Assembly: GCA_965216565.1 (NCBI GenBank)
Contig: OZ244170.1
Coordinates: 352,001-416,000 of the forward strand
Direction: 5' to 3'
DNA: 64,000 nucleotides
From: Bythopirellula sp.
GTDB lineage: Bacteria > Planctomycetota > Planctomycetia > Pirellulales > Lacipirellulaceae
Part shown: positions 30,989 through 64,000 of the stretch, piece after piece
How the letters are laid out: every line of letters starts with the position of its first letter
Numbering within the stretch: position 1 is the stretch's first letter
Position numbers and translations under genes: made by a program
The notes under the pieces: model-generated
Database searches by the model: none
What the model was told of the DNA's origin: nothing
The model's input: the letters and a program-made list of their open reading frames with translations, nothing else

Positions 30989-32245
30989 CTACTTAGCGAG
31001 CTGGCTTACCAGTTTCTTGGAATTGCCTTGTTTCGCTAGCATCTCTTGCTGCGCCACGTCCTGCCCCCGAACAAACTGGACATCACTTTTGCTCAACCGA
31101 CGCAGCGGCACACGCTTCATCGAGCCATTTGCCTTTTCAATCACGATGGCGTCTGTGTCAAGGCTGACCAAGCGTGCTTCGCAATGGTATCGGGCTGTGT
31201 TGTCTGTCCAGTGTCGCGTCTGCGTGCTGTGCAATCCGCCAGCAATGCGTAGTTTGGCAGGAATCGAATCGGAGCCAAACAAATCGTCGAAGTCATCTTC
31301 GCTGTCGTCGCTTTCGGCTGGCTCCTCCGCTTCTTCTGGCGCAGATTCTTCAGCAGGCTCCTCAGCCGACTCAGTGGAGCTGCTGTCTGGCTCTTCTGTC
31401 TCGGTAGGTTCGGCTGGTTCGTCGAACATGTCATCGAATAGATTTTCTTCAGGCTCCTCGGCAGTTTCGTTTTCTTCAACAATGGGTTCAGATTCCTCAG
31501 CAGAGGCAGCTTCTGGCTCATCGAAGATGGAACCGAACTCGTCGCCGCTATCCTCGGCCTCGGCGGGCTGGGGATCAGTGGCAGGCTCGATTTGGGCAGG
31601 TTCAGCTGCCGGAGTCGTTTCAGGTTCAACCAGGGTATTGTTTACGATGTCATCCTCGGCATCGTCATTGGCCACAGGTTCAGCAAATGTTTCCTGAGCT
31701 GGGATCGGTTTCGGATCGGCCAACTGCTCCTCTGGTTCCAAGGCTGGCTGAGGGGTGACGCTCTCGTAAATCTCAGGAACTTTTTCGACCGAGGGCTTGG
31801 CGACCTCAGTGTGCTGGTGCTCGTGGACCGTCACGCTTCCTGAGCTACTGCAACCGCAAGACTCGCTTTGTACTGCTGCGACCTCTGAGCCACCACAGTT
31901 GCTGCAGCCACAAGACTCACTATGTGCCATCGTGGCCTCAGAGCTGGAACAGCCGCACGATTGGTCACCGCAAGCCGATCCGCAATCTGCACAACCACAG
32001 GAAGAATCTGCACAGCTGGAGACTGTTCCGCAACCTGTAGCGTTATGGCAAGGTTGGTCGCAGCAGGATTCCACATAGCTAGAAGAACATCCCCAACAAT
32101 CGGAACTCCAGCTTTCGTAGACAGGTTCGCTATAGACGACACCACATCCACAACCATCGGCCAATGCGGCCAGGGAGGGACCAAACGTCAAGGTAAGGGT
32201 CATCGAATAAACTAATGTCTTCTGGAAGGCACGATACATCTTCAT
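30989..32245 (-). CDS. Exported protein with Cys-rich N-terminus, acidic linker and C-terminal SHD1 domain
   Basis: Signal peptide ending ALA-D; RHWTDNTARYHCEARLV...VPLRRLSKSDVQFV matches SHD1. Confidence 0.85.
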   Translation of the reverse strand: MKMYRAFQKTLVYSMTLTLTFGPSLAALADGCGCGVVYSEPVYESWSSDCWGCSSSYVESCCDQPCHNATGCGTVSSCADSSCGCADCGSACGDQSCGCSSSEATMAHSESCGCSNCGGSEVAAVQSESCGCSSSGSVTVHEHQHTEVAKPSVEKVPEIYESVTPQPALEPEEQLADPKPIPAQETFAEPVANDDAEDDIVNNTLVEPETTPAAEPAQIEPATDPQPAEAEDSGDEFGSIFDEPEAASAEESEPIVEENETAEEPEENLFDDMFDEPAEPTETEEPDSSSTESAEEPAEESAPEEAEEPAESDDSEDDFDDLFGSDSIPAKLRIAGGLHSTQTRHWTDNTARYHCEARLVSLDTDAIVIEKANGSMKRVPLRRLSKSDVQFVRGQDVAQQEMLAKQGNSKKLVSQLAK

Positions 32246-40218: not shown

Positions 40219-41502
40219 TCACGAAGCGATGTCAACGGCTCGCAAGTTCTTGACGAGTACTAAGGTCATCACTAGAAAACTCGCGATGGCACCGAAAAGC
40301 ATGGACCATGCCGCTCCGGCGACGCCAAACTCGCTGATCAGGGGATAAACAGTAAGTGAGATGGCGATAAAGGTGGCTACTTCGCCCCAAAAATTTGCCT
40401 CGGGTAATTGCAGGGCATTCAAGCCATTGGAACTAGTTAGCGCCAGGCTTGTGACCAAGGTATTAACGCTCAGGATGACTAGGACGCTGTTAGCCCAACT
40501 AAATTCGGGGCCAAAGATTTTCTCCAACAACCAGCTCCCGCCGAGAACAAAGATTACGCAGACGGTACCTAGAACGACCGAATAGATGGCTGCTGAACGA
40601 AATAGTTCTACGTGTAAGCCTTTCTTCCCATACTTGTTAAAGGCCCGGATGGCCCGCGGCTGGAGCAGATTGTTAAGGCCCCGTACGAATACCCAAGAGA
40701 ATCCTGCGAGAGTAACACATACTGCCAACACGCCAGCAGCAGAGCGGTCGATCAATCCGGCAACAATCCAGGGCATAGCCACCTGGCAACCATCTCCTAA
40801 GAGTCTGCCGTAGACTAACCATCGCGAGTATGTCCAATGTTGCTTCCAATGGGCTTGGATGGCGCGGCGATCGAACGTGAATTCAACCTTCGGCTTTCCG
40901 ACAAACCAGCTCAAGGCGCCAAAAGCACAAGCAACACTAATAGCTAGAAAACTGTATGGAATCGTTAACTTTTCAAGCCAAGCCATTGCGAGTAGCAATC
41001 CAACTTGAAGCAAGAACACCAGACCATCAACCACTAGGGCAGTTCGAAGTCTAAAATGGGCAAAACAAACTGTGCGCAAGAATTCCCGAAGCATGTAAGG
41101 GACAATCGCAACGCACAGAGCTAGAACGCTGAATGCCATTGTGCTCGCCCCCTCCGTGGCAAACAGGTAGCCACTGTAGAGACATGCAGCGAGGACCGTC
41201 AGCAGGGCCAGGATCAATTGGTGAACCAAAGTGCTGCCGAGTAGGCTAGCCAGCGCGGCATCTTGACGTTGCGCGGAAAACACCATGTACGGTACCGAGA
41301 GGCCCCTTGCTTGAATCATCGACGCGAACAGCACGAGCGAAAGGCACAGAGAATAGATTCCAACCTCTTCCGGAGTGCATACCCGCGCTAGGATTAGCAT
41401 CGTGAGGAAAGTTGTGGTGCTGGCGATGCCCTGGTCGAAAAGGGCCAGGACTCCCTGTCGGGCACCCTTGGAATCTACGACTTTTCTTACCTTTTGAACC
41501 AT
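40219..41502 (-). CDS. Wzx/MOP-family polysaccharide flippase-like protein
   Basis: About 12 hydrophobic segments; DQGIAS..ILARV..PEEVGIYS N-terminus and FGVAGAAW C-terminus. Confidence 0.8.
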   Translation of the reverse strand: MVQKVRKVVDSKGARQGVLALFDQGIASTTTFLTMLILARVCTPEEVGIYSLCLSLVLFASMIQARGLSVPYMVFSAQRQDAALASLLGSTLVHQLILALLTVLAACLYSGYLFATEGASTMAFSVLALCVAIVPYMLREFLRTVCFAHFRLRTALVVDGLVFLLQVGLLLAMAWLEKLTIPYSFLAISVACAFGALSWFVGKPKVEFTFDRRAIQAHWKQHWTYSRWLVYGRLLGDGCQVAMPWIVAGLIDRSAAGVLAVCVTLAGFSWVFVRGLNNLLQPRAIRAFNKYGKKGLHVELFRSAAIYSVVLGTVCVIFVLGGSWLLEKIFGPEFSWANSVLVILSVNTLVTSLALTSSNGLNALQLPEANFWGEVATFIAISLTVYPLISEFGVAGAAWSMLFGAIASFLVMTLVLVKNLRAVDIAS

Positions 41503-41940
41503 CGTGTTCTGTTCTCAGAGAGTTCGCTGGCTGGGGGGCGAATTCTCCGCGTGCTTCATGTCTGCACGTAGTGCTGCGCTATCTGCCCGGGAATAGCACC
41601 ACTCGAGAGGGGATCGGCTGACCACGATCTTACAACCAATGGAAGGCAGTGAGTCGTCTGCGCCTGATTGGCAATTGGGATTGGATTTCGGTTGTCCTCG
41701 ACACTGGTTCCGGTAATTGCCGCGAATCCCTTAATTCACAGTCTCAAAGTCGATTTTCCTTGACAATAAGAAAATGCCGGTTCATTATACACAAGTTAAG
41801 AGGATTGCACGGTTTATGCAGTCTGAAATGAATTGGACGATTCTGAGCCTTCCTGGCTCATAGTCAGCGTTTCAGTGAGTGTCCCCTACAGGACGGGGTG
41901 CTCTCATTCTCATGCCTTTCTTTTTTGGGGAGACTCCACG

Positions 41941-42366
41941 ATGAAGATGATGATGATTTTGCCAGCTTTGGCAATGATGTGCCTCGTGAGCTCGGCTCAA
42001 GCCGACAACGGTGCGATCGACAGTGCTACGCTTAGCGCCATGGGCCTAAGCAACGTTCAAGTGATGTCCGATGTAGAAGCTCAAGACGTACGCGGCATGG
42101 GCTATGCCCCACCTCGTAGAAGCTTGGCACTCGCATTTGGCGTCTCGTTCGCCAGCATCAATGCAGGTCCTGCCAGTGCCGGTACTTTGGACGGTTTCTT
42201 GTCCTATGGCAACCACGTTGCTAAGGGTCAGCATGAATCCGTAGCCCAGATCTCGGAAACCAAGACCAAAACTAAGACGATTCTTGGCGTACCTGCGTAC
42301 TCCATCACAAAGACTCGTACCTTGACAATTGGCGCTGGTGGTAGCTCCAGCTCGTTTGCTTTTTAA
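41941..42366 (+). CDS. Small Sec-exported protein with double-glycine-like pro-leader (paralog A; candidate fibre subunit)
   Basis: GGGGAG ahead of ATG 41941; signal peptide ending AQA-DNG; leader MSDVEAQDVRGMG; co-linear with the gene at 42941. Confidence 0.85.
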   Translation: MKMMMILPALAMMCLVSSAQADNGAIDSATLSAMGLSNVQVMSDVEAQDVRGMGYAPPRRSLALAFGVSFASINAGPASAGTLDGFLSYGNHVAKGQHESVAQISETKTKTKTILGVPAYSITKTRTLTIGAGGSSSSFAF

Positions 42367-42412
42367 GCATGAAAGTGTGAGTTCCCAGGCATTTTCGATG
42401 CCTGACAATTTT

Positions 42413-42453
42413 AAGCGTCTCGACGTTTCCTGGTACGTCGAGACGCTTTTTTT
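42413..42453 (+). terminator. Intrinsic terminator of paralog A
   Basis: AAGCGTCTCGACGT...ACGTCGAGACGCTT followed by a T tract. Confidence 0.85.
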
Positions 42454-42680
42454 GTCTGTCGATCTAATCTGCCTCTGCTAGTTTAAAGCGAATCCCTAGG
42501 GGCTCTGAAGTCTGCTTCTCCATCAGAAGGTTTCCTTTATCCAGGGGATATTCGTTTTCTTTAGGGGCTGTGGCCCCGATTGGTTGAGGATTCGCCTCAA
42601 TCTCATAGCTCGCAAAGCGTCCATTGGCCGAAAAATATCCCCGCAAGATTGGTCTGGCGTGGCCAGTTTTGGTACTGCCT

Positions 42681-42713
42681 GTAACGGTTGTATGGGGAAT
42701 GGTAACGATTGTA
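42681..42713. promoter_or_regulatory. Direct repeat GTAACG(G/A)TTGTA x2, 21 bp apart; putative regulator binding site
   Basis: GTAACGGTTGTA at 42681 and GTAACGATTGTA at 42702, upstream of paralog B. Confidence 0.55.
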
Positions 42714-42940
42714 CGGCCTCTGCGAATTGTTCTTCTCTCGGACCTTGGAACCTAGGCAAATTTCCGAACTCCATTGTTGATGCACTGGGGGTCCCGATTA
42801 GCGTGAGATAGAGAGGGCAGCGACGGGCAACTCAACTTTACCCGGGAAGTTGACCAACCCGTCAAAAACCTCCAACTACTTTTCGGACTACTTAAAAGTC
42901 CACCATCTCACCTCTGTATTCTTACCAGGAGTACCACACG

Positions 42941-43408
42941 ATGACGAAGCTTTTTGTAACTTTGCCTGCTCTGGCTTTGGTTGTTGCCCTTTCCAGTAGC
43001 GCTGTTGCCGACAACGGCATTAACGATGCAACTCTTGCTGACATGGGCCTAGCCGGTGTTGAGCTGATGAACGATGCCGAAGCTATGGAAATCCGTGGCT
43101 TAGGCTACAACGGTGGCCATCAAATGCCACAACCCTCCGGACACGAGAAGCCATGGTCGCTGGCTTTCGGTGTTTCTTACGCTGGAGTTGAAGGTGGCGA
43201 CAGCCACAGTGGCGCTGGTGCCGGAACGCTTGATGGCTTTATTGCCGAAGGCAAGTTCATGGCCTCTGGCGAGCACTACTCGGAAGCTGGCTTGACCAAG
43301 GTTGAGTCGCACGAGCTGCAAGTGAAGGGTCAACCTGCGACTTTGGAAATCAAGACCAAGTCGATCAAGGTCTTCGCTGGTGGTTTCGCAACCGCTTCGA
43401 GCCTCTAA
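42941..43408 (+). CDS. Small Sec-exported protein with double-glycine-like pro-leader (paralog B; candidate fibre subunit)
   Basis: AGGAG ahead of the ATG; signal peptide ending AVA-DNG; leader MNDAEAMEIRGLG; shares LAFGVS, AGTLDGF and KT.....AGG with paralog A. Confidence 0.88.
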   Translation: MTKLFVTLPALALVVALSSSAVADNGINDATLADMGLAGVELMNDAEAMEIRGLGYNGGHQMPQPSGHEKPWSLAFGVSYAGVEGGDSHSGAGAGTLDGFIAEGKFMASGEHYSEAGLTKVESHELQVKGQPATLEIKTKSIKVFAGGFATASSL

Positions 43409-43465: not shown

Positions 43466-43503
43466 AAAAGCGTCCTGTCGCAATGCGGCAGGACGCTTTT
43501 TTT
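43466..43503. terminator. Intrinsic terminator of paralog B, possibly bidirectional
   Basis: AAAAGCGTCCTGTCGCA-A-TGCGGCAGGACGCTTTTTTT. Confidence 0.85.
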
Positions 43504-43517
43504 CGTGGACCCCAGAT

Positions 43518-43575: not shown

Positions 43576-45147
43576 TCACCAAGTGAAGCCCGTGGCAACA
43601 GACACACCATACAGGTCGACAATCAGTCCAGGGGCATCTGCCGTTGTACTCACAACGTAGTCGTTCGTATCTCCCCCATCTGTGGTTTGTACTCCGGCAA
43701 AAGAGCCAGAAGCTGCTCCGCCGCTCGAGGCATCCCAATACTGGTATTCGAAGGCAGTCCGGAAGAATGCCTTGGCTGGCAGACAGCGTAGAGCAAAGTC
43801 CCACTGAATACCCGCCTGGAATTCGCCAATAAACAGATCGTCATTGACGCTGGTTCGGGCACCATCGATCGAACCTGCCGATCCACCTGGAACTGATCCA
43901 TCGGTAGGAATGACCGTTACCCCAGCACTTGTTTGGACTTCGCTGTGGTTACAGCCCCACAAAACAGACGAGCGGGCACTGTAGAACCAATGGGCACAAG
44001 AGCAAGGAAACAGTGGTTTGCGACCGTTCAGCCCGAACGTAAGTCCTGTACCATGGGCGCTACGATTTGCTCGGGTGGTTCCTTCGAGGATACCGTCCGT
44101 GGTATCGGTGCGGACGAACGAGCGACCGTAGATCGATTCGTGATGTTCAATCAAAGCATAACGTGCACCGAACGACAGTTGGTTTTTGCAGCCATGCAGG
44201 CAGAAGTTTCGGGTGACTTCCAGGTCAGCATAGTAGGCTTCAAATATGCTGTTTGCATTATAATCGTTGTCGGGATAGAGTTCCCATGGCTGGAGCGAAT
44301 CGAAATCATTCTCTCCTGCTCGCAAGTGGAAATAGCGACCAACGATGCCCCATTTGCAACCTTGAACACCGAGCCAAATTCGTGGAGCGACATAAAAGTC
44401 GTTTAGGTCGGCGTGATCCCAATAGGGACCGAATTGCTGGAGTCCAGTCCGCGTGCCATTTACGAGTTGTTCGAATTCATACGTGACACGTCTGCCATTA
44501 ATATCAGGCGACAAGAAGACTGCCTCAGTTCCTGCAACGATGGTGCAAGGCCGTTTGCAGCAGCGTTGACATGCACAGCCGCCTCCACAACAAGAGTCGC
44601 AAAAACCCTGCGCACAAGCATCGCAGCAACCGGTGGCTCCGCAGTAAAGCGGGTCCTGCCAGGTCGGTTCAGCTCCGCTATCATCCGGGGTTGGACCCAC
44701 GCTAGAGATAGCAGGTTCTTCTGCAGGTAGATCGTAGATCTCCTCGTTGGCTTGGGCACGGATGACTCGCGACGTCCCGATGTTGCCCACCGCAGAAATA
44801 TCATTTCGATAGGCGGATGCCGCTGGTCGGGGAGCGACCGGCGTAGAATGGGTCACACTTGTAACCAGAGGTCGCTGCTGTGGTTTTTCATCCGTCGCAA
44901 CAAAGTTGCCTTTGTCGTCCTGCTCCGTGAGCCAACGGACTGTCGTTGTTTGGGTATCTCCGCTGTTGCGAGTCGACTTGGATTCGAGGGATGCTTGCAT
45001 CCGTTCGAGCTGTGCCGCTTTTTCAGCTAGTTCTGCGGCCAGTTGCGATAGGTCGCCAGTCGATTGACCAGCTGCCCACAAGACGTTGCACCAAGAGGTG
45101 CCGACCATTGCCAAACAAATGGCAGTGATACTAAGTAGCTTCTTCAT
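43576..45147 (-). CDS. Planctomycete-type outer-membrane beta-barrel protein (Lpg1974/BBP7-like) with a Cys-rich pre-barrel segment
   Basis: Signal peptide MKKLLS..; short coiled coil; Cys cluster; strands APRIWLG, GIVGRYF, SFGARYA, GEFQAGIQW, RTAFEYQYW; ends ATGFTW. Confidence 0.8.
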   Translation of the reverse strand: MKKLLSITAICLAMVGTSWCNVLWAAGQSTGDLSQLAAELAEKAAQLERMQASLESKSTRNSGDTQTTTVRWLTEQDDKGNFVATDEKPQQRPLVTSVTHSTPVAPRPAASAYRNDISAVGNIGTSRVIRAQANEEIYDLPAEEPAISSVGPTPDDSGAEPTWQDPLYCGATGCCDACAQGFCDSCCGGGCACQRCCKRPCTIVAGTEAVFLSPDINGRRVTYEFEQLVNGTRTGLQQFGPYWDHADLNDFYVAPRIWLGVQGCKWGIVGRYFHLRAGENDFDSLQPWELYPDNDYNANSIFEAYYADLEVTRNFCLHGCKNQLSFGARYALIEHHESIYGRSFVRTDTTDGILEGTTRANRSAHGTGLTFGLNGRKPLFPCSCAHWFYSARSSVLWGCNHSEVQTSAGVTVIPTDGSVPGGSAGSIDGARTSVNDDLFIGEFQAGIQWDFALRCLPAKAFFRTAFEYQYWDASSGGAASGSFAGVQTTDGGDTNDYVVSTTADAPGLIVDLYGVSVATGFTW

Positions 45148-45760
45148 CTTAAGATTCCCCCCTGCCGCTGTACCGACAACGCTCGCGAATGCTAAGCGGT
45201 GTACCAACGACAAATTGCCAAAAAGTTCTTAACTGGGTCGAAAAGTTTGAGTCCCTGCTTCTTGCCCGAGATGCCTCAAAGAGATTCGCGAGCAAAAGGC
45301 AAACTTAGTACTCCGCATTCGTTGATCCATAAAAGGAATGCGACTGGCACTAGTCGGGTAACCGCCAATGGTGGACTAATGCAGAGAACAGGATCGACAG
45401 TCAAAACCGATTCGATCGAAGAATTTAGTACCCACTGATACAACCGGTAGAATCGTTAAACTCAACCATGTGTCTCAACGTGCGGAAATAGCGGTATTCG
45501 CGGGGTGGCAGCGCATTCGTGAGTCTTCAGGTGATAGCTCCGATAGCACTTTCTTAGACCGATCTTCCAGTATCCAGGCAGTGATTCTCAAGAGTATGCC
45601 TTAGTTAAGACGATGAATCGCTACAACCGGCATAACACGCAAAGTTTGCCAAATCGTGTCCCGCGGCGGTTGCTGGCCACATTTCGTACTGAATTATCAA
45701 CTAGCGCTGTGCGAAGCACGTTCCAACATGGCCAATACAACAGAGACCAATCGAACGAGC

Positions 45761-47830
45761 ATGAAATTGCAAGTGAGCTCAATAATGAAGCTCGCGTTGA
45801 CACTTTCAATTACGCTCGTGAGTTTCCAAAAGACCGAAGCGGTCGAGAAAAACTCACAAAGCTGGTTTCGCCCATTTGCCTGGCAAGAAAGTCCTGAACC
45901 CGGTCAGGGGTCCGGTATCGAAGCACCTCCGGTAGCCAGGAATCTGAACATTTTTAAATGGTCGAACGATGTCCAGCCGCAAGCTCAGCAGCCATCATCG
46001 GATACAACGCGGACTCAAGGCACACGTCTGCCGACGGTGCAGCAGCCCAGCACAAAACTATTGGCCGGTCTTCCATCTGGTCCGAGCATCCCTGCTGATT
46101 TAGATGCTGAATCGCCAGTGATTGCCACAGATAGCCTGCAACAACCTGGCTCCGTAGCGGTTACTGCTTCGCAGCAGTTCGCCACCATTGCTGAGCCTCA
46201 AGGTTCAGCGTCGAGTGTGTCGGATAACGTGCGTCAAACGGCCGCTTATGGGCAGCAGCCGGTGAATTGGCCTGCAGAGAATGAGCAATCCAATCAGGCA
46301 GCAAATTCATCCGGAAACAACAATCCATTTTCATGGACAAACTCAGGACCTGCAGTGCCTCAAAGTGTGGCACCTCCACAAACGGCTCCCATCATGGAGC
46401 GTAGCCGCCAGCCTTGGGAGTGGTCCAACAATCCTACGGTGCGAGAGAAGCCACAAGAGATTATGCCACCCGATGAACCCTCATTGGGTTCAGCATTGCA
46501 TAATGCCCTAAGCTGGTCTGACCAACCGAATCCAACACCACCAACGGCTGCCGAAAGTGGGCGGCCTCCGGAAGATGCAACCGACGCAGAATTGGTTGAA
46601 TGGGAAAAGCAAAAATATCCTTGGATCCGCCCCTTTTACTGGGCAAATAGCAACCCAGAACTTGGGGTAGAAAACGAAATCGCACCGCGTGACCCCACTC
46701 AAGTAGAAGGTTATGTACCGCTCCTGGCAAAACCGTTCAATTGGGACAATCGCCAGGTGAGCCAGCAGCCTAGGCCGCTCGCAGAAACGCCAAATGGGTT
46801 AACCAGCTATCCTACAACACAGGCTGCCGCATACTTTCAAGACGAGGAATCGCTACCGAATCCACTTGAAGAGCTCAAAATCCCTAGAGACGACGAGGCA
46901 GATCGTAATCAGACAGCGGGCACTGCTAAGGACAATGAGCTCGATGGCGAAAAGAAGGGCACGCTGGCCGAAGCAGAATCGCTTGGTGAAGCACCAGAAG
47001 ATAACAGCTTACAATTCCTCAGGGCCGATACGGTGCTGCTGAAGCCTGGAGACTTTCAGTTCGACTACGGCTTCGCCTATACCAAGTTTGATCGAACAAC
47101 GCCTGTCATTGTGGCTACTGATGCGGGTAACGTGGTCGAACATGCAGAGTTGCGACTGCGTGAACTTCGGGTTCCATTCGAAATTCGCTATGGTCTAGCC
47201 AGACGCGTCCAACTATTCCTGAACGTGCCCTTTGGATGGGTCAATTCAGAATTCAGCTTCCCCGGGTTCGACGAGTTCGAGAACGATGGCGGCATCGGCG
47301 ACATAGTCTTTGGTGGATCGTTTTTGCTAAGAGAAAACGATCCTTGCAACAAGCCTGACGCAATTCTTACGTTCGCTGCAGTGGCACCGACCGGGAATGA
47401 TCCTTTTCCCGCCGTAGGCGCATCGACTGCTGCTCCTTCGCTAGGCAATGGTTTTTGGTCGCTTGCTTCCAATTTGTTGTTCATTAAGAACTACGATCCG
47501 GTCGTGCTGTTCTACGGAGCGGGTACTCGCCAGAACTTCGATACAGAGTTCAACGGACAAGAGTTCCGTGCGGGTGGAGAATACAACTATCAATTTGGCG
47601 TTGGCTTCGGCGTTAACAGCAAAGTCACGTTTAGCACGCGCTTCAACGGTGCCTATGTAACGGAGTCGAGACTCGACGGTCAACGGATCCAAGGTTCAAT
47701 ACAGGAGCCGATGACCCTGGGTCTTGCCATGACCATTGCTAAGAACAAGAAGCTTATCGAGCCGTTCGTCGATTTTGGGCTCACCGACGATGCATCTGAC
47801 GCAAGATTTGGCATTACCTGGACGCGATAG
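45761..47830 (+). CDS. FapF-like ('transporter'/MetA-pathway family) outer-membrane beta-barrel with a long Pro/Gln-rich N-terminal region
   Basis: RYGL..R, GIGDI, APTGNDPF, GNGFWS, YDPVVLF and FGLTDDASD resemble FapF-family motifs; immediately upstream of a C39 peptidase; start uncertain (45761 or 45785). Confidence 0.8.
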   Translation: MKLQVSSIMKLALTLSITLVSFQKTEAVEKNSQSWFRPFAWQESPEPGQGSGIEAPPVARNLNIFKWSNDVQPQAQQPSSDTTRTQGTRLPTVQQPSTKLLAGLPSGPSIPADLDAESPVIATDSLQQPGSVAVTASQQFATIAEPQGSASSVSDNVRQTAAYGQQPVNWPAENEQSNQAANSSGNNNPFSWTNSGPAVPQSVAPPQTAPIMERSRQPWEWSNNPTVREKPQEIMPPDEPSLGSALHNALSWSDQPNPTPPTAAESGRPPEDATDAELVEWEKQKYPWIRPFYWANSNPELGVENEIAPRDPTQVEGYVPLLAKPFNWDNRQVSQQPRPLAETPNGLTSYPTTQAAAYFQDEESLPNPLEELKIPRDDEADRNQTAGTAKDNELDGEKKGTLAEAESLGEAPEDNSLQFLRADTVLLKPGDFQFDYGFAYTKFDRTTPVIVATDAGNVVEHAELRLRELRVPFEIRYGLARRVQLFLNVPFGWVNSEFSFPGFDEFENDGGIGDIVFGGSFLLRENDPCNKPDAILTFAAVAPTGNDPFPAVGASTAAPSLGNGFWSLASNLLFIKNYDPVVLFYGAGTRQNFDTEFNGQEFRAGGEYNYQFGVGFGVNSKVTFSTRFNGAYVTESRLDGQRIQGSIQEPMTLGLAMTIAKNKKLIEPFVDFGLTDDASDARFGITWTR

Positions 47831-47867: not shown

Positions 47868-48638
47868 ATGAACGTCAAAATATCTAGTTGCTGTTTACTC
47901 GTGGTCATAGCATTGGGTGCGGCTGCGCCCTGTCACACCTATGCGGAGGGCGATCGTCAGGAGCCCCCTAAAAAGAGCCAGCAAAAGAAACGCGAGCGTC
48001 CGGGCCCACCAGTTCGAGACCGCGAGCATACTTTTGCTAAACGTGTGCGAAACTACCGGGAGCTCAAACGCCAGAACATTGTTATGCAGCAGCGAGATTA
48101 CTCTTGCGGTGCGGCAGCATTGGCCACGATTGCCCACTACTATTGGCGGGACAACGTCGATGAGGAGTTCTTTCTGTCTATACTAGATCACATTCTAACC
48201 CTAGAAGAAGCTAAAGAGCGGGTCGAAAATGGCTTGGCGATGAGCGACCTGCGCCGTGCTGCCGTCGAGGCAGGCTACAAGGCTATTGTGGGTAAGGTTT
48301 CTTTTCAAAAACTCACCGAGTCGAAAGTGCCATTAATCGTGGGCATCACTGTCGACGACTACGATCACTTTGTCGTGTATCGCGGTACTGACGGCATCTA
48401 TGTTTATTTGGCTGATCCAATTCGCGGGAATCTTCGCGTTCGCAGCCATGTGTTCATCAAACAGTGGCAAAAGAATGCAATCTTGGCGATTGCTAAGCCG
48501 GGTGCCAAAGTGAAGGAATATTCCCGTCTGAGCATCACAGGCGACGAGCTATTCCTGGGTCGGCTCAATGATCAGGTTGTGCGGACGGCAGGCGAACGAC
48601 CGATCACGCGTCCCATCTATCGCCCCATCGTACGCTGA
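47868..48638 (+). CDS. Stand-alone exported C39 peptidase (FapD-like)
   Basis: Signal peptide; MQQRDYSCGAAALAT (Gln, Cys), YDHFVV (His), YLADP (Asp); no fused ABC transporter. Confidence 0.92.
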   Translation: MNVKISSCCLLVVIALGAAAPCHTYAEGDRQEPPKKSQQKKRERPGPPVRDREHTFAKRVRNYRELKRQNIVMQQRDYSCGAAALATIAHYYWRDNVDEEFFLSILDHILTLEEAKERVENGLAMSDLRRAAVEAGYKAIVGKVSFQKLTESKVPLIVGITVDDYDHFVVYRGTDGIYVYLADPIRGNLRVRSHVFIKQWQKNAILAIAKPGAKVKEYSRLSITGDELFLGRLNDQVVRTAGERPITRPIYRPIVR

Positions 48639-57577: not shown

Positions 57578-58447
57578 CTACTCAACATCAACACCTAGGA
57601 TGCGTGCTATGAAATGAGAAAATGGTTCGCCCGTTAGCATATTGGCTTCACCCATGTTCCGAGCGTAGCTCATTATCCATTCTCTTGGATCAGAGACAAC
57701 GATACCTTCTTTGTCAGCCAGTTCCTGCTTAAGAGTGTCTAACACGAGAGGTAAAGCACCCTGGCGTTTCGCGTCAGATAGTATGACGAAAAGGTGCGTA
57801 TCTATTTTATTTTTCTCATCTAGCTGTTCGCTTCTAGGCGATTCTTGCCGCAATAAAAGGTTACGCAATCGACTGGAATGAAGTGGTGCCTGGTGCACGG
57901 GATTCTGGTAGATATAGGCGAGAATTGAGGAATAGGCATCTACATTTATGTCGTGTTTAGTTGCTAAAGCCTCTTGTCTTTCTACTTCCCTAAACATCCA
58001 GCTTGCAGGGTCTTCAGTTAGAATCCCTTCATGCTCAAGAAGGTCTTTTTGAAGTTGGTCGAGGACCGCATTTTCTATTCCAGCTTCTCGCACACTATAT
58101 AGCTCAGCAAATACGGCCATGGGCAGTCGAGGTCCGCGGGCATTCATTTCAACACCGTTTTGAACGTAAGTTTTCCTTAGCAGCAAGTTTCTAAGATTGC
58201 TGGCATGATGTGCAATTTTTTCTCCAAGTTGTTGCTCTTGCGATATGGCTGGGTGAGTTTCGGGCGTCTCACTTGAAGTATTGAAGACAGCATCAAATCC
58301 AGGTGCGGGGGATGAGTTCTCGTGAGCAATGATCTCCTGCCTTCGTCCTTCACCCTCTGGTGCTACCTCTTTAAGGTCGATGGTTGAGGTCAGGTCAGTA
58401 CCACTTGTTGATTGCGATTGGCCTGGTAATGAAATAATCGGGGTCAT
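57578..58447 (-). CDS. Hypothetical protein with an internal domain duplication
   Basis: HASNLRNLLLR...EGILTEDPASW recurs as HSSRLRNLLLR...EGIVVSDPREW; GGAGAG ahead of ATG 58447. Confidence 0.75.
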   Translation of the reverse strand: MTPIISLPGQSQSTSGTDLTSTIDLKEVAPEGEGRRQEIIAHENSSPAPGFDAVFNTSSETPETHPAISQEQQLGEKIAHHASNLRNLLLRKTYVQNGVEMNARGPRLPMAVFAELYSVREAGIENAVLDQLQKDLLEHEGILTEDPASWMFREVERQEALATKHDINVDAYSSILAYIYQNPVHQAPLHSSRLRNLLLRQESPRSEQLDEKNKIDTHLFVILSDAKRQGALPLVLDTLKQELADKEGIVVSDPREWIMSYARNMGEANMLTGEPFSHFIARILGVDVE

Positions 58448-58712
58448 TTGATTGCTCTCCAAAACCTTACAGATAATTACTTTCGCTGTTCTTCTCTACG
58501 AAAGTTATTGGAGGGTTGTCAGGTGGAGTAGCATAGATACTTAAGTTAGGTGGCATGCTTGGAGCAATCGAACGTAGCCTCATCTGGCTTAATCAATATG
58601 ATTTAGATGGCTTTTCTTAGGGATGAACTCTGGTACATTAGGGTGTTAGGAAAATCCCTCGTTCTTGAGCCAGTCGTGATAGATTAGCCTGAGATTAAAG
58701 GCGTTATAAGTA

Positions 58713-59555
58713 ATGTCGCAGGACACCCTCAATCTCGGTGATTTCGACTCTTCTCTATGTCGACCTCTTGGTTGTACCTTCTATTTCATCACCTCAATAG
58801 TAATGGTCTTTGGGTACAAGGTTGATATTCTGTTCCCAATTGGTGGTGAGGACTGGTTTTGGGGAGTCCTGGTAACGGCAGGCGGTGCCGTTCTCTTCAT
58901 GTGGCCTATTGGTTTAGTTTTTCTGCTGCTCTCTATTCCGTTCATCAAATTACTCGGTAAAGGTCTAGGCTTTCTAGCTATCTTGCTATGTATGGTTCTA
59001 TTTTACCCCGCACTGAACGTAGCAATTGGAGTAAGCCAAGGACACTTTGAAGATAAGGCCAAGATTCTTCTTCGTATGGATAGAGAACGTGGAGTCCGTG
59101 AAGAGCTCCCCGAGGAGTTATCCCACAAGCGGGTGGAGTACTTTGTTTTTTTGACGGAGAGCGTAAACAGTTCGTTTCTAGATGCAAAGACAGCCTTTGA
59201 AAAACTGATTGATATCAACTTCATCAAGTCCCTACAGCCCAATATTGAGAAGCAAATGCAAATAGGGGAAATCGTCGATGAAAGCATTAAAGAGTTATCG
59301 AGAATGCAAGGCAGTATGCCCGCAAGAGAGGTACATGTGGACAATTGGAAATACTTTAACGGAGCATTCCTCGAGGCTTCACTGGAGATAAAACGACTAA
59401 GTGAAATACGCAGCATTCACTTTGAGGAGGGGGAATTATTAAGCGTTAATAGAGAGGCCCCAAAGACTCATAGCCCGCTAATGACTTTTCTTGCTTTTTG
59501 GTTTTTTGTTGGCATCGGCATGATCGTGATTAAAGGAATCATGAAGGGCAATTGA
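58713..59555 (+). CDS. Hypothetical membrane protein
   Basis: Three to four N-terminal hydrophobic segments, a helical soluble region and a C-terminal hydrophobic helix. Confidence 0.7.
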   Translation: MSQDTLNLGDFDSSLCRPLGCTFYFITSIVMVFGYKVDILFPIGGEDWFWGVLVTAGGAVLFMWPIGLVFLLLSIPFIKLLGKGLGFLAILLCMVLFYPALNVAIGVSQGHFEDKAKILLRMDRERGVREELPEELSHKRVEYFVFLTESVNSSFLDAKTAFEKLIDINFIKSLQPNIEKQMQIGEIVDESIKELSRMQGSMPAREVHVDNWKYFNGAFLEASLEIKRLSEIRSIHFEEGELLSVNREAPKTHSPLMTFLAFWFFVGIGMIVIKGIMKGN

Positions 59556-59587
59556 CTTGCTCAGCTACGAGTTCAGAAAGTGATGGC

Positions 59588-61111
59588 TCAGTCGTCACGA
59601 AAACTCTTTATGTCATCAGGTCCGAAGTCATCTTCTTCGTGTTCATCGTTAGCTCCGAGTGCATTCTCTATTTTTGTTGAATCCCATTCGGGTGCTTCCC
59701 AATCGTCCTCGAAGAACTGGGTTGGTAACCACTTCTTTCTCCCATCTGGTAACTTTTCAGGTTCCCAATAGGGTTGGAAGAACTTCTCTCTGATATTGAA
59801 GGGCTCAGCATGTTGATCGATGATATCTCGGGTAAATCCAGAAATTCGTCCATCGGACTTAATATTCCTGATGTCTTTTTCCGAGATGATAGTGTCCAGA
59901 ACCCTCGCCCCACCAACCTTTTTAGTTTGGCGTTCCTTATTCCATGGCTCATCTGCCGCTACGTTCTTTTCAGTCGAAGCCTCTTTCGGACCTAATAATT
60001 CGGCGGCCCATTTGGTATCTTTGGGGTCCTCAACTGCAAGAATCATTTTATTGCCAAGCTGACTAGTAAGCGTCTCTACGTTAGCTTCTGTTTTGAATGC
60101 CGAAACAAGAGAATGTCTTGTTTGGAAAGCCAATAGAGCAAAAATACCGAGCCAGCGACCTTCCAATAGAGTTGTTGATAGAGCTTCATGGTTTGAGAAT
60201 TTAGCAAACTCATCAATTATTATTGCAGTATTGAACGGCGAATCGTCACCTTCTTTAGGTGGATTCAAGTCCCGATTTAAGAGGATTGCTTGAAGACGTG
60301 TCATCACAGTGCGATTAAGCTCATTGAGCATAGAGCTAGGCTCTGTGTCAGCACCAAGCACTAGAATACCTTCTGTCTTGACCCAATTCTTCAAGCTAAC
60401 TGATTTGCCGTCCATCACGTGTTGATGCATGTAATCTGAGAGCCGTCTTAATCCTTCAAATCGTCCCCTCACATCGGCTTGAATATTATCAGCTGTTCGA
60501 TCAGAACCAAGATCGGCGAGAAGTTCGCGACCGTGCTGTCGGGTTGCAATAACCTTCCGCCTAAGATCAGGATTTAGCATGACGTAGACAAAATCCGTGA
60601 ATGTCCAGTCTTGCTTTAGTATGCTTTTTAGACCGAGAAGCGTATGGGTTATTAGTCCACGACTCATCTTATTAAAAAACATCGCGGCGTCATCGGTCCC
60701 AGTTGGCTCGGGGACTAAAGTGGCGGCAATTCCCATCGCATCATTCTCGTGAGCAACATCAGCGGCGATGTCCCAGGCATAAGCTCTTTTGTCATGCGGG
60801 TGCATAAGAATTAGATCTACGCCGCTGTCTTTTATTGCATAGATGTTGGAAGCGAACTCCGGCTTTGGGTCATAAATGATGAGACGTTGATTACTCCCTG
60901 GGAGTATGTAGGGAACGATATCATGTAGGATCGTATGTATGACTGTGCTTTTTCCACTCCCTGTCGCACCCATAATCATGAAATGACGTTCACGCACTTT
61001 CCTGAGAGGAAGTTTCTTACGGAAGTCACCCCAGAAAATCTTTCTTTCCGTTGGTTTTGGTCGAAACCAATTTCGTATTGCTGCAAAAAGTCCGGTTTTT
61101 TTTGTGGCCAT
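59588..61111 (-). CDS. Type IV coupling protein-like ATPase (TrwB/TraD DNA-binding domain)
   Basis: RHFMIMGATGSGKST (Walker A), IYDPKPEF, HPHDKRAYAWD, IIIDEF (Walker B), EGR..G...LAFQ, KWAAELLG. Confidence 0.88.
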   Translation of the reverse strand: MATKKTGLFAAIRNWFRPKPTERKIFWGDFRKKLPLRKVRERHFMIMGATGSGKSTVIHTILHDIVPYILPGSNQRLIIYDPKPEFASNIYAIKDSGVDLILMHPHDKRAYAWDIAADVAHENDAMGIAATLVPEPTGTDDAAMFFNKMSRGLITHTLLGLKSILKQDWTFTDFVYVMLNPDLRRKVIATRQHGRELLADLGSDRTADNIQADVRGRFEGLRRLSDYMHQHVMDGKSVSLKNWVKTEGILVLGADTEPSSMLNELNRTVMTRLQAILLNRDLNPPKEGDDSPFNTAIIIDEFAKFSNHEALSTTLLEGRWLGIFALLAFQTRHSLVSAFKTEANVETLTSQLGNKMILAVEDPKDTKWAAELLGPKEASTEKNVAADEPWNKERQTKKVGGARVLDTIISEKDIRNIKSDGRISGFTRDIIDQHAEPFNIREKFFQPYWEPEKLPDGRKKWLPTQFFEDDWEAPEWDSTKIENALGANDEHEEDDFGPDDIKSFRDD

Positions 61112-61116
61112 AGTGA

Positions 61117-61584
61117 TTATCTCCAAAAAAAGATGATTCTAAAGATGACCCTAAAGGCGGGGTCAGCCCACCCAGGCTCGCCTCTCCCACGATCATCTGC
61201 TTTCGACTCTGGAGGAACACAAAGGAACAGGTAGACTACTGCTGAAAAGAGAGCGGGAATCGTGCAGAGCCAGAAAGGAACTGCACTTAGGCTTTCTTTA
61301 GAGTGCAAGTACCCAGGTATCCCCCAGACGAAAAACATTGATAGCATCGAGAGAATAGCAAGGGCGTTTTTCTCCAAGAGGGAGAGGTTAAGAGCTTTAT
61401 GATAGAAAGAGACCGCGAAGTATGAGAAGGGGAGGAGGTAAGCATATACGAGAGTTGGGGAAGGGTTCTCAGGGAGAAAGGTATATTGAAATTCTTTGTC
61501 CTGTGCGATCAGGTAGTAGACGATTGCAGCCAGTGATGCAGCAAGTGCACAAGTAAGAGCAAGATGGAATATAGGTTTCAACAT
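61117..61584 (-). CDS. Small protein with about four transmembrane segments
   Basis: Hydrophobic 155-aa ORF between the relaxase and the coupling protein. Confidence 0.65.
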   Translation of the reverse strand: MLKPIFHLALTCALAASLAAIVYYLIAQDKEFQYTFLPENPSPTLVYAYLLPFSYFAVSFYHKALNLSLLEKNALAILSMLSMFFVWGIPGYLHSKESLSAVPFWLCTIPALFSAVVYLFLCVPPESKADDRGRGEPGWADPAFRVIFRIIFFWR

Positions 61585-61613
61585 GATGATGCCAGAGTTG
61601 GACAGACCGCTGT

Positions 61614-63998
61614 CTATTTGTCGTACGAGGTGTCGTGTGTAGGGGGCAGAACTTTTGGAGGAGCATTTTGTTCAGCGATTGAGGCAGCCAACTCATGGGC
61701 CATCTCTTGTCGCCGTGATCTTTCAAGTTGAGACTTAAGCGGGCCATCAAGAGGCTGCTGAACAGGCTTATTCTCGTAGTCATATTTTGGTGGAGCTAGG
61801 GTTCCTCGTGCTAACTGGGTAAGAACTTCGCCAGCACTGTGTTCCGTCGTGTATAGGTTAAGGGTCTTTTTGTGGCGACTCCCTTGAACATAGCTCATTT
61901 CTTTATCTGTCATTGAGTCCCCAAGTGCCACATACATGTTATCGATTGTTGCCCCTTGAAGTTTATGCACTGTATCTGCGTAGCTAAGGCGAAAAGCGGG
62001 GCGTTGATCGTGCTTATCCGGTTTGGCAAACTTGGTTCGACCGATGATTGTTTCTAAAGGGATGAGGCGAATATCATCATCGTTGGGCCTGTATTTGAAT
62101 GTAGGTTTTTCAGGGGCTTGCCTTAAAAGCTGGATTGCTGAGTGCTTGAGTAGCTCTGTCGCCTTTGTCTTTAGGGATTTTTTCGGCACGTCAATTTTCA
62201 CCGCGATCGCTTTAGTCCAGCCCCAATCTCGAATCCCAAGGATAATGCCCTCATCGCCGTTAAAGACTCGAAGCTTTCGTGAGTTCTTCTGGAACTTGAT
62301 TTTATCGCCCACATAGAAAGTAGTGTCATCGAACATTAACCGCTTCTTAGACTCTAGTTGACCTGCTTTGAGCCTGACTTGCTGTGCCGCAAGGTTTAAG
62401 GCATCAACTTGTTTGTTGGTTGAGGCAGCAATGACATGGCTGTCTGGATCTTCCGCACCACCTGCCTTCTCCCAATCTTTGATAATCTTCTCTTCTAGTT
62501 CGTGTGAGGTCTCAGAGACATTAAGAAACCCTTTTTCAGCATATGCTCTAAGGAAATCCTCAACTCTTGCCTCAGAGATGTCTATTGTGGCTTTTTTAGC
62601 CCAGTCTTTTTCTTGACGTTCAACTTTGACCAGCTTACTGCTTCCAAACATGTTGATGATTTGAGTAAACGCAGCACCGGGACCAACAGGAGGGAGTTGC
62701 TTATCGTCACCAACAACGATGAGGCGGGCACCTTGTTCCTCAACAGCTTTAACTAGTAGCTGCATGTCGCCTGTTGTAACCATGCTTGCTTCATCAAGCA
62801 CTAACACCTTCTTTTGGGATAGTTTTAGTTTCTCACGTTTGTAGGTCCACTTCTTTCGTGCAGCACGAGTCAGTTGTCGTAAGTGATGCTTTACTAGGTA
62901 TTTCTTCTCTGGGTAGATCTGCAAAAGTCGCATTTTGAGCGTATCGGTTGGTATGCCAGCTCCAGCTTGTAGCTCCTGACGTGCTCTATGAGTAGGAGTG
63001 AGGCCGATTACCTCATAGCCTTGAGCCTCATAAGCTTGTCGTGTTGCCGCAAGCATGGTGGTCTTACCAGTACCAGCTAAACCCGTCACAACACGCACGG
63101 TAGCGTCACCTAATACGAGATGCTGTACAGCCTCTGCCTGTTCAGAATTAAGTTCGAGAGAGAAATCACTACCTTTTTTATCAACAAGTTGAATTGGCTT
63201 ACTAAGAAGCTTCTCAACCTTCTTCTTGGATAGCTGTACTAGCTTCCTATCTTTCAAGGTATTTAGAGATTCAGTTAGCAACCGCTCAGATTCAAGGGTT
63301 GAGCTAGTAGTGAAGTATTGCTCGAAACTTCTGGTTCCCAGGTTATGCAATCTGCTTGAGTCAGCAACTTCCTTGTCAAACTGAGAAAGGAAGTAATCTG
63401 GCGTAACGCCAGAAGCTTGTAGCTGATGAGCAACTTCAAGCATAAGGTCTTTACGCGAGAAGTAGCTCTTGATGCTTTCTAGTGACTCAACTCCTTCAGA
63501 AAGTGACCGCCGTAGCACTGAGTACCTATCTGTCTTAGCTCGCCCTTTGCCTAACAACTCGCGTGCTTTGGAAAGGGTGAAGCCTACTTCGCTAGACTCA
63601 TGCCGCCAGCGATCAAACAGTTCGCTTCTTGCAGGAACTACGTCCTTCACTGCCCGAGTGGCTAGATTTGCTAAGGCAGCAGCTGAAGCGGTCTCAACAC
63701 CTTTCTTCCCAAGTTCTTTCTCAATTTGCTTACGTCTTTTAGAGAATGCATCCCTAACATCTTTGGATATTCCGGCAACTTCAAAAGAAGTATCATTCTG
63801 CTCAATTGCTAATCCAAGTTCTTGCTCAAGTATGTGGGCGAACTCCAGCCTATAGATTGCACCAGCAAGCATCTTATGCTGGTAAAAGGGTTTGCTTAGA
63901 AGAGCGCGAACATTTGAATCGGGGCAGAATCCAAGATTGAGAAGTAGGCAGTGAGTATGAAGCTGTGGGTCGAGTGCTCGACTAGTACTATGCTCAAA
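61614..63998 (-). CDS. MobF (TrwC/TraA-type) relaxase-helicase, 5'-truncated by the window edge
   Basis: The frame is open past the tracked ATG and reads FEHSTSRALDPQLHTHCLLLN (MobF three-His motif); FSKRR..I; SF1B helicase motifs GLAGTGKT, LDEASMV, VGDDKQL, ERQ, YADTVHKLQGAT, YVQGSRH. Confidence 0.93.
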   Translation of the reverse strand, partial: FEHSTSRALDPQLHTHCLLLNLGFCPDSNVRALLSKPFYQHKMLAGAIYRLEFAHILEQELGLAIEQNDTSFEVAGISKDVRDAFSKRRKQIEKELGKKGVETASAAALANLATRAVKDVVPARSELFDRWRHESSEVGFTLSKARELLGKGRAKTDRYSVLRRSLSEGVESLESIKSYFSRKDLMLEVAHQLQASGVTPDYFLSQFDKEVADSSRLHNLGTRSFEQYFTTSSTLESERLLTESLNTLKDRKLVQLSKKKVEKLLSKPIQLVDKKGSDFSLELNSEQAEAVQHLVLGDATVRVVTGLAGTGKTTMLAATRQAYEAQGYEVIGLTPTHRARQELQAGAGIPTDTLKMRLLQIYPEKKYLVKHHLRQLTRAARKKWTYKREKLKLSQKKVLVLDEASMVTTGDMQLLVKAVEEQGARLIVVGDDKQLPPVGPGAAFTQIINMFGSSKLVKVERQEKDWAKKATIDISEARVEDFLRAYAEKGFLNVSETSHELEEKIIKDWEKAGGAEDPDSHVIAASTNKQVDALNLAAQQVRLKAGQLESKKRLMFDDTTFYVGDKIKFQKNSRKLRVFNGDEGIILGIRDWGWTKAIAVKIDVPKKSLKTKATELLKHSAIQLLRQAPEKPTFKYRPNDDDIRLIPLETIIGRTKFAKPDKHDQRPAFRLSYADTVHKLQGATIDNMYVALGDSMTDKEMSYVQGSRHKKTLNLYTTEHSAGEVLTQLARGTLAPPKYDYENKPVQQPLDGPLKSQLERSRRQEMAHELAASIAEQNAPPKVLPPTHDTSYDK

Positions 63999-64000
63999 AG

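What the first reader, a model, noticed from the sequence alone, without database searches (positions are those of the whole stretch)
42001..43110. Two-step leader in both small proteins: Sec signal peptide followed by a double-glycine-like C39 recognition motif
Seen: after the AxA signal-peptidase site both proteins share DNG.I..ATL..MGL..V..M(S/N)D.EA..(V/I)RG(M/L)GY. Established: C39 peptidases recognise leaders of the type LSxxELxx(I/V)xG(G/A/S) and cut after them. Inference: MSDVEAQDVRG and MNDAEAMEIRG are variant leaders, so the proteins would cross the inner membrane by Sec and then be matured in the periplasm by the neighbouring C39 enzyme, with the acidic pro-peptide possibly preventing premature assembly. 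Sequence similarity drops right after RG.GY, as expected at a leader/core boundary.
Basis: partly seen in the sequence, partly recalled or inferred. Interest (0 to 1): 0.8.

Follow-up and report, generated by a model that had tools for sequence, protein, structure and literature searches.

The report
Second leader for Fap-type periplasmic protease
Two small planctomycete proteins carry, behind a predicted export signal, a conserved tag ending in Arg-Gly that also marks FapE of the Pseudomonas-type amyloid system, and this tag is likely read and probably cut off by the neighbouring FapD-type protease, which would give a testable site for an enzyme whose target was still unknown in the papers read.

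Summary
The motif is real and specific: its strict pattern occurs 4 times in the genome, always behind a signal peptide. The neighbours are a FapF-like barrel, a second predicted outer-membrane barrel and the genome's only C39 peptidase, which is FapD-like and has an intact active site. In 201 genomes of the order, leader and peptidase occur together in 38 of 39 positives each. The leader is conserved (Arg-Gly in 100 of 100) and the cores vary. It is not a true double-glycine leader: -7 is Gly/Ala and -1 is bulky. The same register with bulky -1 occurs in 64 of 69 genes following fapD-like genes elsewhere, including true FapE (shuffles 1.2%), but in only 4 of 102 FapB/C-like proteins. So it is most likely the FapD-family recognition leader. 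Binding, cutting and the exact bond are inferred, not shown. Two first-reader claims fail: acidity is not conserved, and A/B similarity resumes after a short linker. This scan noted the same leader before in another genome.

The parts
41760..41788 (+). sigma-70-like promoter candidate (TTGACA-17-CATTAT) upstream of ORF A
   Evidence: consensus match only (4 found vs 4.8 expected in shuffles, this one 10 of 12)
41941..42366 (+). ORF A, 141 aa precursor: predicted signal peptide (aa 1-21), pro-leader (aa 22-52/53), Gly/Ala/Ser/Thr-rich core
   Evidence: no Pfam match over cut-off and no NCBIfam match
42004..42099 (+). pro-leader of A; recognition motif MSDVEAQDVRG at 42064-42096, -1 residue Met at 42097-42099
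42413..42448 (+). intrinsic-terminator-like hairpin with U run after A
   Evidence: z -7.2
42941..43408 (+). ORF B, 155 aa precursor: predicted signal peptide (aa 1-23), pro-leader (aa 24-53/54), linker, core predicted as four long beta strands (aa 72-153)
   Evidence: low-confidence model, pLDDT 62.5, pTM 0.35
43010..43102 (+). pro-leader of B; recognition motif MNDAEAMEIRG at 43067-43099, -1 residue Leu at 43100-43102
   Evidence: predicted helices aa 29-34 and 45-51
43466..43505 (+). intrinsic-terminator-like hairpin with U run after B
   Evidence: z -6.9; not listed by the pattern scan
43576..45213 (-). predicted outer-membrane beta-barrel with long strands (likely start ATG 45147), conserved member of the module
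   Evidence: 39 loci with >=270 aa matched; pLDDT 94.3; best match Legionella porin I 9nh1, Z 23.4, rmsd 2.9, 233 aligned; OpcA Z 20.5; OmpT-type Z 17.2
45656..47830 (+). FapF/FilC-like outer-membrane channel with a long N-terminal region (likely start ATG 45761)
   Evidence: FapF E 2e-17, 62.9 bits, far below the 700-bit cut-off; PDB FapF 5o65, E 1.7e-16
47868..48638 (+). stand-alone C39 cysteine peptidase, FapD/FilB-like, with Sec-type signal; Gln74, Cys80, His167, Asp183 intact; the only C39 match in the genome
   Evidence: (FapD 92 bits vs 38 for the best ABC-fused model)

Best explanation
The two proteins are likely cargo of a planctomycete FapD/FapF-type export module, and their conserved 30-residue pro-leader is likely the signal that the neighbouring C39 peptidase reads and probably cuts off. 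Inferred steps: (1) Sec export and removal of the signal at AxA. (2) In the periplasm the leader helix (-10 to -4) would dock on the peptidase groove, with the invariant Arg-3 possibly pairing with an Asp that is nearly invariant in FapD-type C39s. (3) The cut would fall most likely after R-G-X (canonical register, bulky P1), otherwise after R-G. (4) The Gly/Ala/Ser-rich beta-strand core would leave through the FapF-like channel and assemble at the surface as a fibre or coat, perhaps anchored by the second barrel. Shown here: the motif, its conservation, the gene module, the joint distribution, and the same motif on FapE. Not shown: binding, cleavage, export, assembly.
For: Leader-positive genomes 39 of 201 and C39-positive 39 of 201 in the order; overlap 38, own genome included. 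In 34 of these 38 a leader gene lies within 10 kb of the C39 on one contig; in the other 4 the C39 is within 2.2 kb of a contig start (counted by hand). The C39-only genome G111 has a divergent leader gene (..IRA) beside its fapF. In 300 further genomes of the phylum the C39 clade was found in 0 and the leader in 1, a marginal hit. Of 100 leaders from fetched loci: R-3 100, G-2 100, D-10 97, V/I/L-4 100, M/V/L/I-12 97, AxA-to-Arg distance 28-32 in 96; 99 cores fall into 18 groups. The leader profile matches 1107 clusters at 50% identity. All 40 aligned C39s keep Gln, Cys, His and Asp. In loci picked by the peptidase alone, 64 of 69 distinct downstream genes carry [LVIM]x4[LM]x3RG, with -1 = R51, K11, M2 (shuffles 1.2%). 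Three of these pass the NCBIfam FapE cut-off, one in a complete fapBCDEF operon (5 scanned). Only 4 of 102 FapB/C-like proteins match. This parallels Rouse 2017 (PMC5557850): FapD Cys is needed for secretion, and only FapE lacks N-terminal peptides (first peptide at residue 72). The Asp at the PCAT1 Gly57 position is present in 40 of 40 planctomycete and 76 of 77 other FapD-like enzymes.
Against: No direct evidence of cleavage, binding or expression. The genes travel as one cassette, so co-occurrence is largely linkage, and kin are not independent. Two defining residues of C39 leaders are not met: -7 is Gly (80) or Ala (20), whereas L(-7)A strongly lowers PCAT1 binding (PMC6959990); -1 is never Gly in 100 or in 145 further leaders, whereas the PCAT cleft is narrow. 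PCAT1's groove residue Ile59 is Arg in 35 of 40 planctomycete enzymes. The FapE MS gap does not map a cut and a reviewer doubted it. G071 has a leader match but no C39 match (91% complete, 370 contigs). The RG counts among profile-selected hits are partly circular. The core has no Fap amyloid family match and no known fold, so 'fibre' rests on analogy and composition.
Confidence: 0.66

Rival explanations
1. The leader is read but not cut: it is a targeting or chaperone tag bound by the C39 (or by the FapF periplasmic region), and the catalytic Cys acts on another partner such as the FapF linker.
For: Bulky -1 and small -7 break the known cleavage rules. Rouse 2017 proposed FapF itself as a possible FapD target.
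Against: Conservation stops sharply at R-G-X with free cores behind it, as at a cut site. The FapE N-terminus is missing in MS. The conserved FLR motif before the FapF barrel is not an RG motif.
Confidence: 0.16
2. The pro-region is a structural part of the mature subunit (an assembly helix or anchor) and is unrelated to the peptidase; the link to C39 is only cassette linkage.
For: The upstream LxxMG(L/M) half is as conserved as the RG motif and has no counterpart in FapE leaders. Linkage alone explains co-occurrence.
Against: The same register and RG are on FapE, whose core is unrelated (no FapE match for A or B). The leader is fused to unrelated cores such as the His/Lys-rich orphan in L002. 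Its -12/-4/-2 spacing equals that of solved C39 leaders.
Confidence: 0.1
3. Processing is as proposed, but the released cores are diffusible or contact-dependent antibacterial or signalling proteins (microcin- or glycine-zipper-like) rather than fibre subunits.
For: Conserved leader with variable Gly/Ala/Ser-rich cores, up to 11 copies per genome, and orphan copies resemble bacteriocin precursors.
Against: No modifying enzyme, immunity-like gene or C39-ABC transporter was seen in the window locus, and the genome's only C39 is stand-alone. The channel is FapF-like, and its known relatives export fibre subunits. Cores are near neutral on average and predicted beta.
Confidence: 0.08

Closest known systems
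Fap functional-amyloid system of Pseudomonas (fapABCDEF; Rouse 2017 PMC5557850, Rouse 2018 PMC6173800)
   Same: Stand-alone Sec-exported C39 (FapD-like) next to a FapF-like barrel; Sec-exported small cargo; FapE carries the same-register leader ending R-G-(R/K/M).
   Different: No FapA/B/C/E match and no Asn/Gln amyloid repeat family in A or B. Gene order is fapF then fapD. All cargo found carry the leader, not one minor subunit (cargo were identified by the leader, so others could be missed). The leader has an extra LxxMG(L/M) helix and Gly/Ala at -7. A second barrel is part of the module. The C39s form their own branch (100/100; unrooted).
Fil putative pilus system of Acinetobacter (FilA, FilB, FilC; NCBIfam NF050077-79)
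   Same: C39 (FilB-like, E 1.5e-20) plus FilC-like barrel (E 3.6e-6); FilA has a signal followed by MDDAALSAATG-Q in the same register.
   Different: Scores are far below cut-offs; no FilA match for A or B; FilA has Thr, not Arg, at -3.
Double-glycine leaders cut by PCAT C39 domains (LahT150 PMC6363468; PCAT1-CtA PMC6959990)
   Same: Hydrophobic -12 and -4, Gly-2, predicted helix over -10 to -4, same catalytic residues.
   Different: There the leader replaces a Sec signal and is cut in the cytoplasm by an ABC-fused domain; Leu-7 and a small -1 are required. Here the leader follows a Sec signal, -7 is Gly/Ala, -3 is invariant Arg and -1 is bulky.

Membership tests
Double-glycine leader (PCAT substrate) | Hydrophobic residues at -12 and -4 | tested here: met
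   -12 M/V/L/I 97 of 100; -4 V/I/L 100 of 100
Double-glycine leader (PCAT substrate) | Leu at -7 | tested here: not met
   Gly 80, Ala 20 of 100; Ala in A and B
Double-glycine leader (PCAT substrate) | Gly at -2 followed by Gly/Ala/Ser at -1 | tested here: not met
   Gly-2 100 of 100, but -1 is K33 M26 L15 T13 R5 S3 Q3 H1 E1; in 145 further leaders Gly 0, Ala 3, Ser 5
Double-glycine leader (PCAT substrate) | Leader at the N-terminus, exported by a C39-ABC transporter | tested here: not met
   Leader follows a Sec-type signal; the only PF03412 match in the genome is the stand-alone 256-aa protein (genome 94% complete)
Double-glycine leader (PCAT substrate) | Cleavage by the C39 enzyme | not testable with these tools
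   needs N-terminomics or an in vitro assay
Fap system (fapABCDEF) | Stand-alone C39 with signal peptide and intact catalytic residues (FapD-like) | tested here: met
   below the equivalog cut-off (92 vs 330 bits), so a relative and not FapD proper
Fap system (fapABCDEF) | FapF-like outer-membrane barrel within 5 kb of the C39 | tested here: met
   adjacent gene; E 1.7e-16 to PDB FapF, 62.9 vs 700 bits
Fap system (fapABCDEF) | FapB/FapC subunits with Asn/Gln amyloid repeats, and FapE | tested here: not met
   A and B match no NCBIfam family at E<=1, while the same library names FapB, FapC and FapE in control loci; cores have N 4.9%, Q 2.7%. Only the six locus proteins were scanned, not the whole genome.
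Fap system (fapABCDEF) | Amyloid fibre formation | not testable with these tools
   needs expression and microscopy
Fil putative pilus system | FilA (NF050077) subunit | tested here: not met
   no match for A or B; control FilA scores 328 bits
Fil putative pilus system | FilB and FilC above cut-off | tested here: not met
   73.7 vs 475 and 26.6 vs 630 bits; related only

The most novel reading that the evidence does not exclude
A universal 'second leader' (hydrophobic-x-D-x-x-x-x-x-hydrophobic-R-G-bulky) is the address label and cleavage site of all FapD/FapF-type systems, FapE included. FapD-type C39s have a re-built specificity (Arg at P3, bulky P1). Planctomycetes use this module, with an extra barrel as anchor, as a general periplasm-to-surface route for more than a thousand clusters of freely exchangeable small proteins that build a new kind of beta-strand fibre.
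Probability: 0.35. Interest if true: 0.87.

Novelty: new variant of a known kind. Interest (0 to 1): 0.72.

Why it matters
In the papers read, the target and site of FapD are stated as undetermined (PMC5557850, PMC6173800), and the authors expected a non-standard recognition sequence. This comparison names a candidate: the LxDxELxxLRG-(R/K) motif behind the FapE signal peptide, and its planctomycete variant. A few point mutants and an N-terminal read would test it. If right, it defines the sorting signal of a secretion route found in several phyla. It also assigns a role to a large unannotated planctomycete family (1107 clusters; no Pfam family common in the nearest ESM Atlas clusters), and offers a portable tag for exporting chosen proteins through FapF-type channels.

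Tried and rejected
RNA evidence: no RNA holder listed, no evidence either way. Fold of precursor B: low-confidence model; no Foldseek match at E<=0.001 and best VIA Z 2.9, inconclusive. Idea that the FLR helix before the FapF barrel mimics the leader: rejected, the residues after R are not Gly and vary. Idea that the cores are related to the long strands of the second barrel: no support (probability 0.8%). Idea that a bulky residue at the PCAT1 Ala55 position compensates for small -7: rejected, FapD enzymes with Leu-7 cargo have Met/Leu there too. The Gly71 position does differ (Gly 75 of 77 vs I/V/M/T 40 of 40), but this is one clade contrast and the passages read do not name it as a contact. 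Pfam scan of 69 leader members: only weak PepSY_2 hits (10 members, best E 0.012), not accepted. BBP7 as a name for the second barrel was recalled; Pfam did not match it. One search was meant to sample another phylum but appears to have returned the planctomycete sample again; not used. One search returned mainly Aeromonas-like FapE relatives; not used for counts. Literature searches listed no paper describing this leader or a planctomycete fapD-fapF locus. Most subscription journals are outside the library, only the top rows were seen, and the main supplementary PDF of PMC5557850 (with Fig. S18 on FapE motifs) was too large to read; Fig. S1 of PMC6173800 (phyla with fapD-fapF) was not opened. 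Either may already show part of this.

Full report
OBSERVATION. ORF A (41941-42366) and ORF B (42941-43408) are 44% identical. Each starts with a Sec-type signal ending AQA or AVA (read by eye; Ala at the -1 site is invariant in 79 of 79 homologues with a residue there). The described pro-region follows. Each gene ends in a strong hairpin with a U run, so each is probably its own transcript. The genome holds four such precursors: A, B, a full-length paralogue at C1:3889868 and an orphan ending at C1:1752036 that shares only the signal and leader and has a His/Lys-rich core. The strict motif occurs nowhere else in 5.62 million residues of six-frame ORFs. Between A and B it drops for a short linker and returns to 22 of 39 identities at A residues 64-102 (counted). 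Across the family the leader is the conserved part (47% vs 30% mean pairwise identity over about 590 random pairs from different loci).

SURROUNDINGS. Downstream lie three genes. First, a minus-strand gene whose C-terminal 321 residues fold with high confidence into an outer-membrane-type barrel with long strands (pLDDT 94.3; best match Legionella porin I, Z 23.4, rmsd 2.9, 233 aligned). Second, a FapF-like channel (E 1.7e-16 to PDB FapF). Third, a stand-alone C39 peptidase closest to FapD and FilB, with a signal peptide and intact Gln/Cys/His/Asp. It is the only PF03412 match in the genome. The organism is a planctomycete, inferred from named relatives and the ESM Atlas clusters.

DISTRIBUTION. 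In 201 genomes of the order, 39 have the precursor family and 39 have the C39 clade; 38 have both. Most matches cover only profile positions 1 to about 60, that is signal plus leader. In 34 of the 38 a precursor gene lies within 10 kb of the C39; the other four C39 genes sit near contig starts in fragmented assemblies (hand count). G111, C39-only by score, has a divergent precursor ending IRA beside its fapF. G071 has a leader at a contig edge and no C39 match. The two same-genus genomes lack both. In 300 further genomes of the phylum the C39 clade was not found, and the leader gave one marginal hit. In the fetched loci the fapF-like gene lies directly upstream of the C39 on the same strand, and the second barrel is matched over at least 270 aa in 39 loci. 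Because these genes are linked, co-occurrence shows a conserved cassette, not independent co-evolution.

THE LEADER. In 100 precursors from loci L001-L055 and the window, numbered in canonical register: L-23 99, G-19 100, -12 M/V/L/I 97, -11 S/T/P/N 98, D-10 97, -7 G80/A20, -4 V/I/L 100, R-3 100, G-2 100, -1 K33 M26 L15 T13 R5 S3 Q3 H1 E1, +1 G51 S32 F10 A4. Net charge is not conserved (mean -0.8, 28 positive). Cores have a median length of 78 aa, are 45% Gly/Ala/Ser, and 99 of them fall into 18 single-linkage groups. The leader profile matches 1107 clusters at 50% identity; all 150 listed have R-G, and -1 is never Gly in the 145 that fit the pattern (selected by the profile, so partly circular). 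The model of B puts a helix at residues 45-51, that is -10 to -4 (low confidence), as in solved C39-leader complexes (PMC6363468 sections 8 and 9, PMC6959990 section 8 and passages). By those papers Leu-7 matters and the cleft at the cut is narrow, so this is not a member of the double-glycine class.

THE LINK TO FapE. To see whether the departures are a property of FapD-type enzymes, I fetched 80 metagenome loci by the peptidase alone (best 80 of 580, ranked by likeness to an Aeromonas FapD, so biased to true Fap operons and with many close kin). Nine had no complete downstream gene and two duplicates were dropped. Of 69 distinct downstream genes, 64 carry [LVIM]x4[LM]x3-R-G in residues 15-130, against 1.2% of shuffles. 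Three more have T/S-G in that register, and two were mis-called frames counted as misses. D-10 is in 58 of 64, and -1 is Arg 51, Lys 11, Met 2: bulky, as in the planctomycetes. Three of five such genes scanned pass the NCBIfam FapE cut-off, one in a complete fapBCDEF operon. FapB/C-like proteins match in 4 of 102, and those four hits lie in the amyloid repeat itself. In nine plasmid-collection loci the gene after fapD has R-G in 7 and x-G in 2, mostly with Gly at -1. Acinetobacter FilA has the register with T-G. One further locus was broken by transposases and the Neisseria C39 showed no fap context. Rouse 2017 (PMC5557850; passages and supplements 1, 6 and part of 8 read) showed that FapD is periplasmic, that its Cys is needed for secretion, that only FapE lacks N-terminal peptides (first at residue 72), and that the target was unclear. 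Rouse 2018 (PMC6173800; passages) repeats this and notes fapD-fapF pairs in five more phyla. A 2026 preprint (10.64898/2026.10.01.755530; passages) still says only 'precursor processing'. On the enzyme side, an Asp replaces PCAT1 Gly57 in 40 of 40 planctomycete and 76 of 77 other FapD-like sequences. It is a candidate partner for Arg-3; this is inference from alignment only. The planctomycete enzymes form their own well-supported branch.

MECHANISM. Most likely: Sec export, signal removal, docking of the leader on the periplasmic C39, a cut at R-G-X, passage of the beta-rich core through the FapF-like channel, and assembly at the surface, possibly on the second barrel. My odds: leader recognised by the C39 about 0.82; also cut about 0.7; given a cut, after R-G-X about 0.6 and after R-G about 0.3; cores are surface fibre or coat subunits about 0.55. 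None of these steps is shown directly, and no complex could be predicted.

COMPARISON AND NOVELTY. It works like Fap/Fil secretion and uses a leader descended from or convergent with the double-glycine type. It is not a member of Fap (no FapB/C/E match in the locus), of Fil, or of the PCAT substrate class. It is a new variant of a known kind. The searches listed under Tried and rejected found no description in print, with the limits stated there. This scan has noted the same leader before in another genome (e1-7669306, e1-7669316); those are unchecked AI notes, seen after my reading was formed, and are not counted as evidence.

VERDICT. Interest 0.72, because it turns the open FapD-substrate question into a simple experiment.

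Noticed in passing
G000:C1:3003567-3007670 (L055:5568-9670): A second copy of the barrel plus FapF-like pair (FapF 61% identical) with no C39 and no leader gene within the 18 kb fetched; may share the single C39 and the orphan precursors.
   Followed up: partly
L002:7693-8037 - (G000:C1 about 1751695-1752036): Orphan precursor with the same signal and leader but a short, very basic His/Lys-rich core, next to dnaA; could be a metal-binding or antimicrobial-like cargo.
   Followed up: partly
L001:7866-8339 + (G000:C1 about 3889868): Orphan full-length paralogue with a Gly-rich insert, upstream of RimK-like ATP-grasp, 7TM transglutaminase-like and aspartyl-protease-like genes (names from recall, not scanned).
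   Followed up: partly
window 40219-41502 -: Polysaccharide flippase-like gene (PF01943) divergent from ORF A; also next to the precursors in L004 but not matched in the other loci.
   Followed up: partly
window 43576-45213 -: The barrel gene has a Cys-rich stretch (CCDACAQGFCDSCC-like) before the barrel and conserved Cys inside it; strands are long enough to project well outside the membrane.
   Followed up: partly
L034, L038 (G062, G119): Tandem duplicated C39 genes behind one fapF-like gene.
   Followed up: no
L037:11471-11854 + and L036:6583-6975 -: Divergent precursor type with GGC(L/C)C just after the leader and a Val/Asn/Lys-alternating core; their C39s branch apart from the rest.
   Followed up: partly
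L057:7838-8100 and L059:7261-7500: Some proteobacterial FapF N-terminal coiled-coil regions end in a similar motif (LARKRGG, LGTQRARG); possible second FapD site, not counted.
   Followed up: no
L003, L007: Records titled Granulosicoccus carry this planctomycete-type module; the phylum search centred on that genome looked like the planctomycete sample, so the title may be a mislabel.
   Followed up: partly
window 30989-32245 -: Secreted-looking protein with a Cys-rich N-terminus, long acidic linker and C-terminal SHD1 domain (PF03983).
   Followed up: no
window 58001-64000: GC drops to 45-46% against about 54% elsewhere; possible inserted DNA.
   Followed up: no
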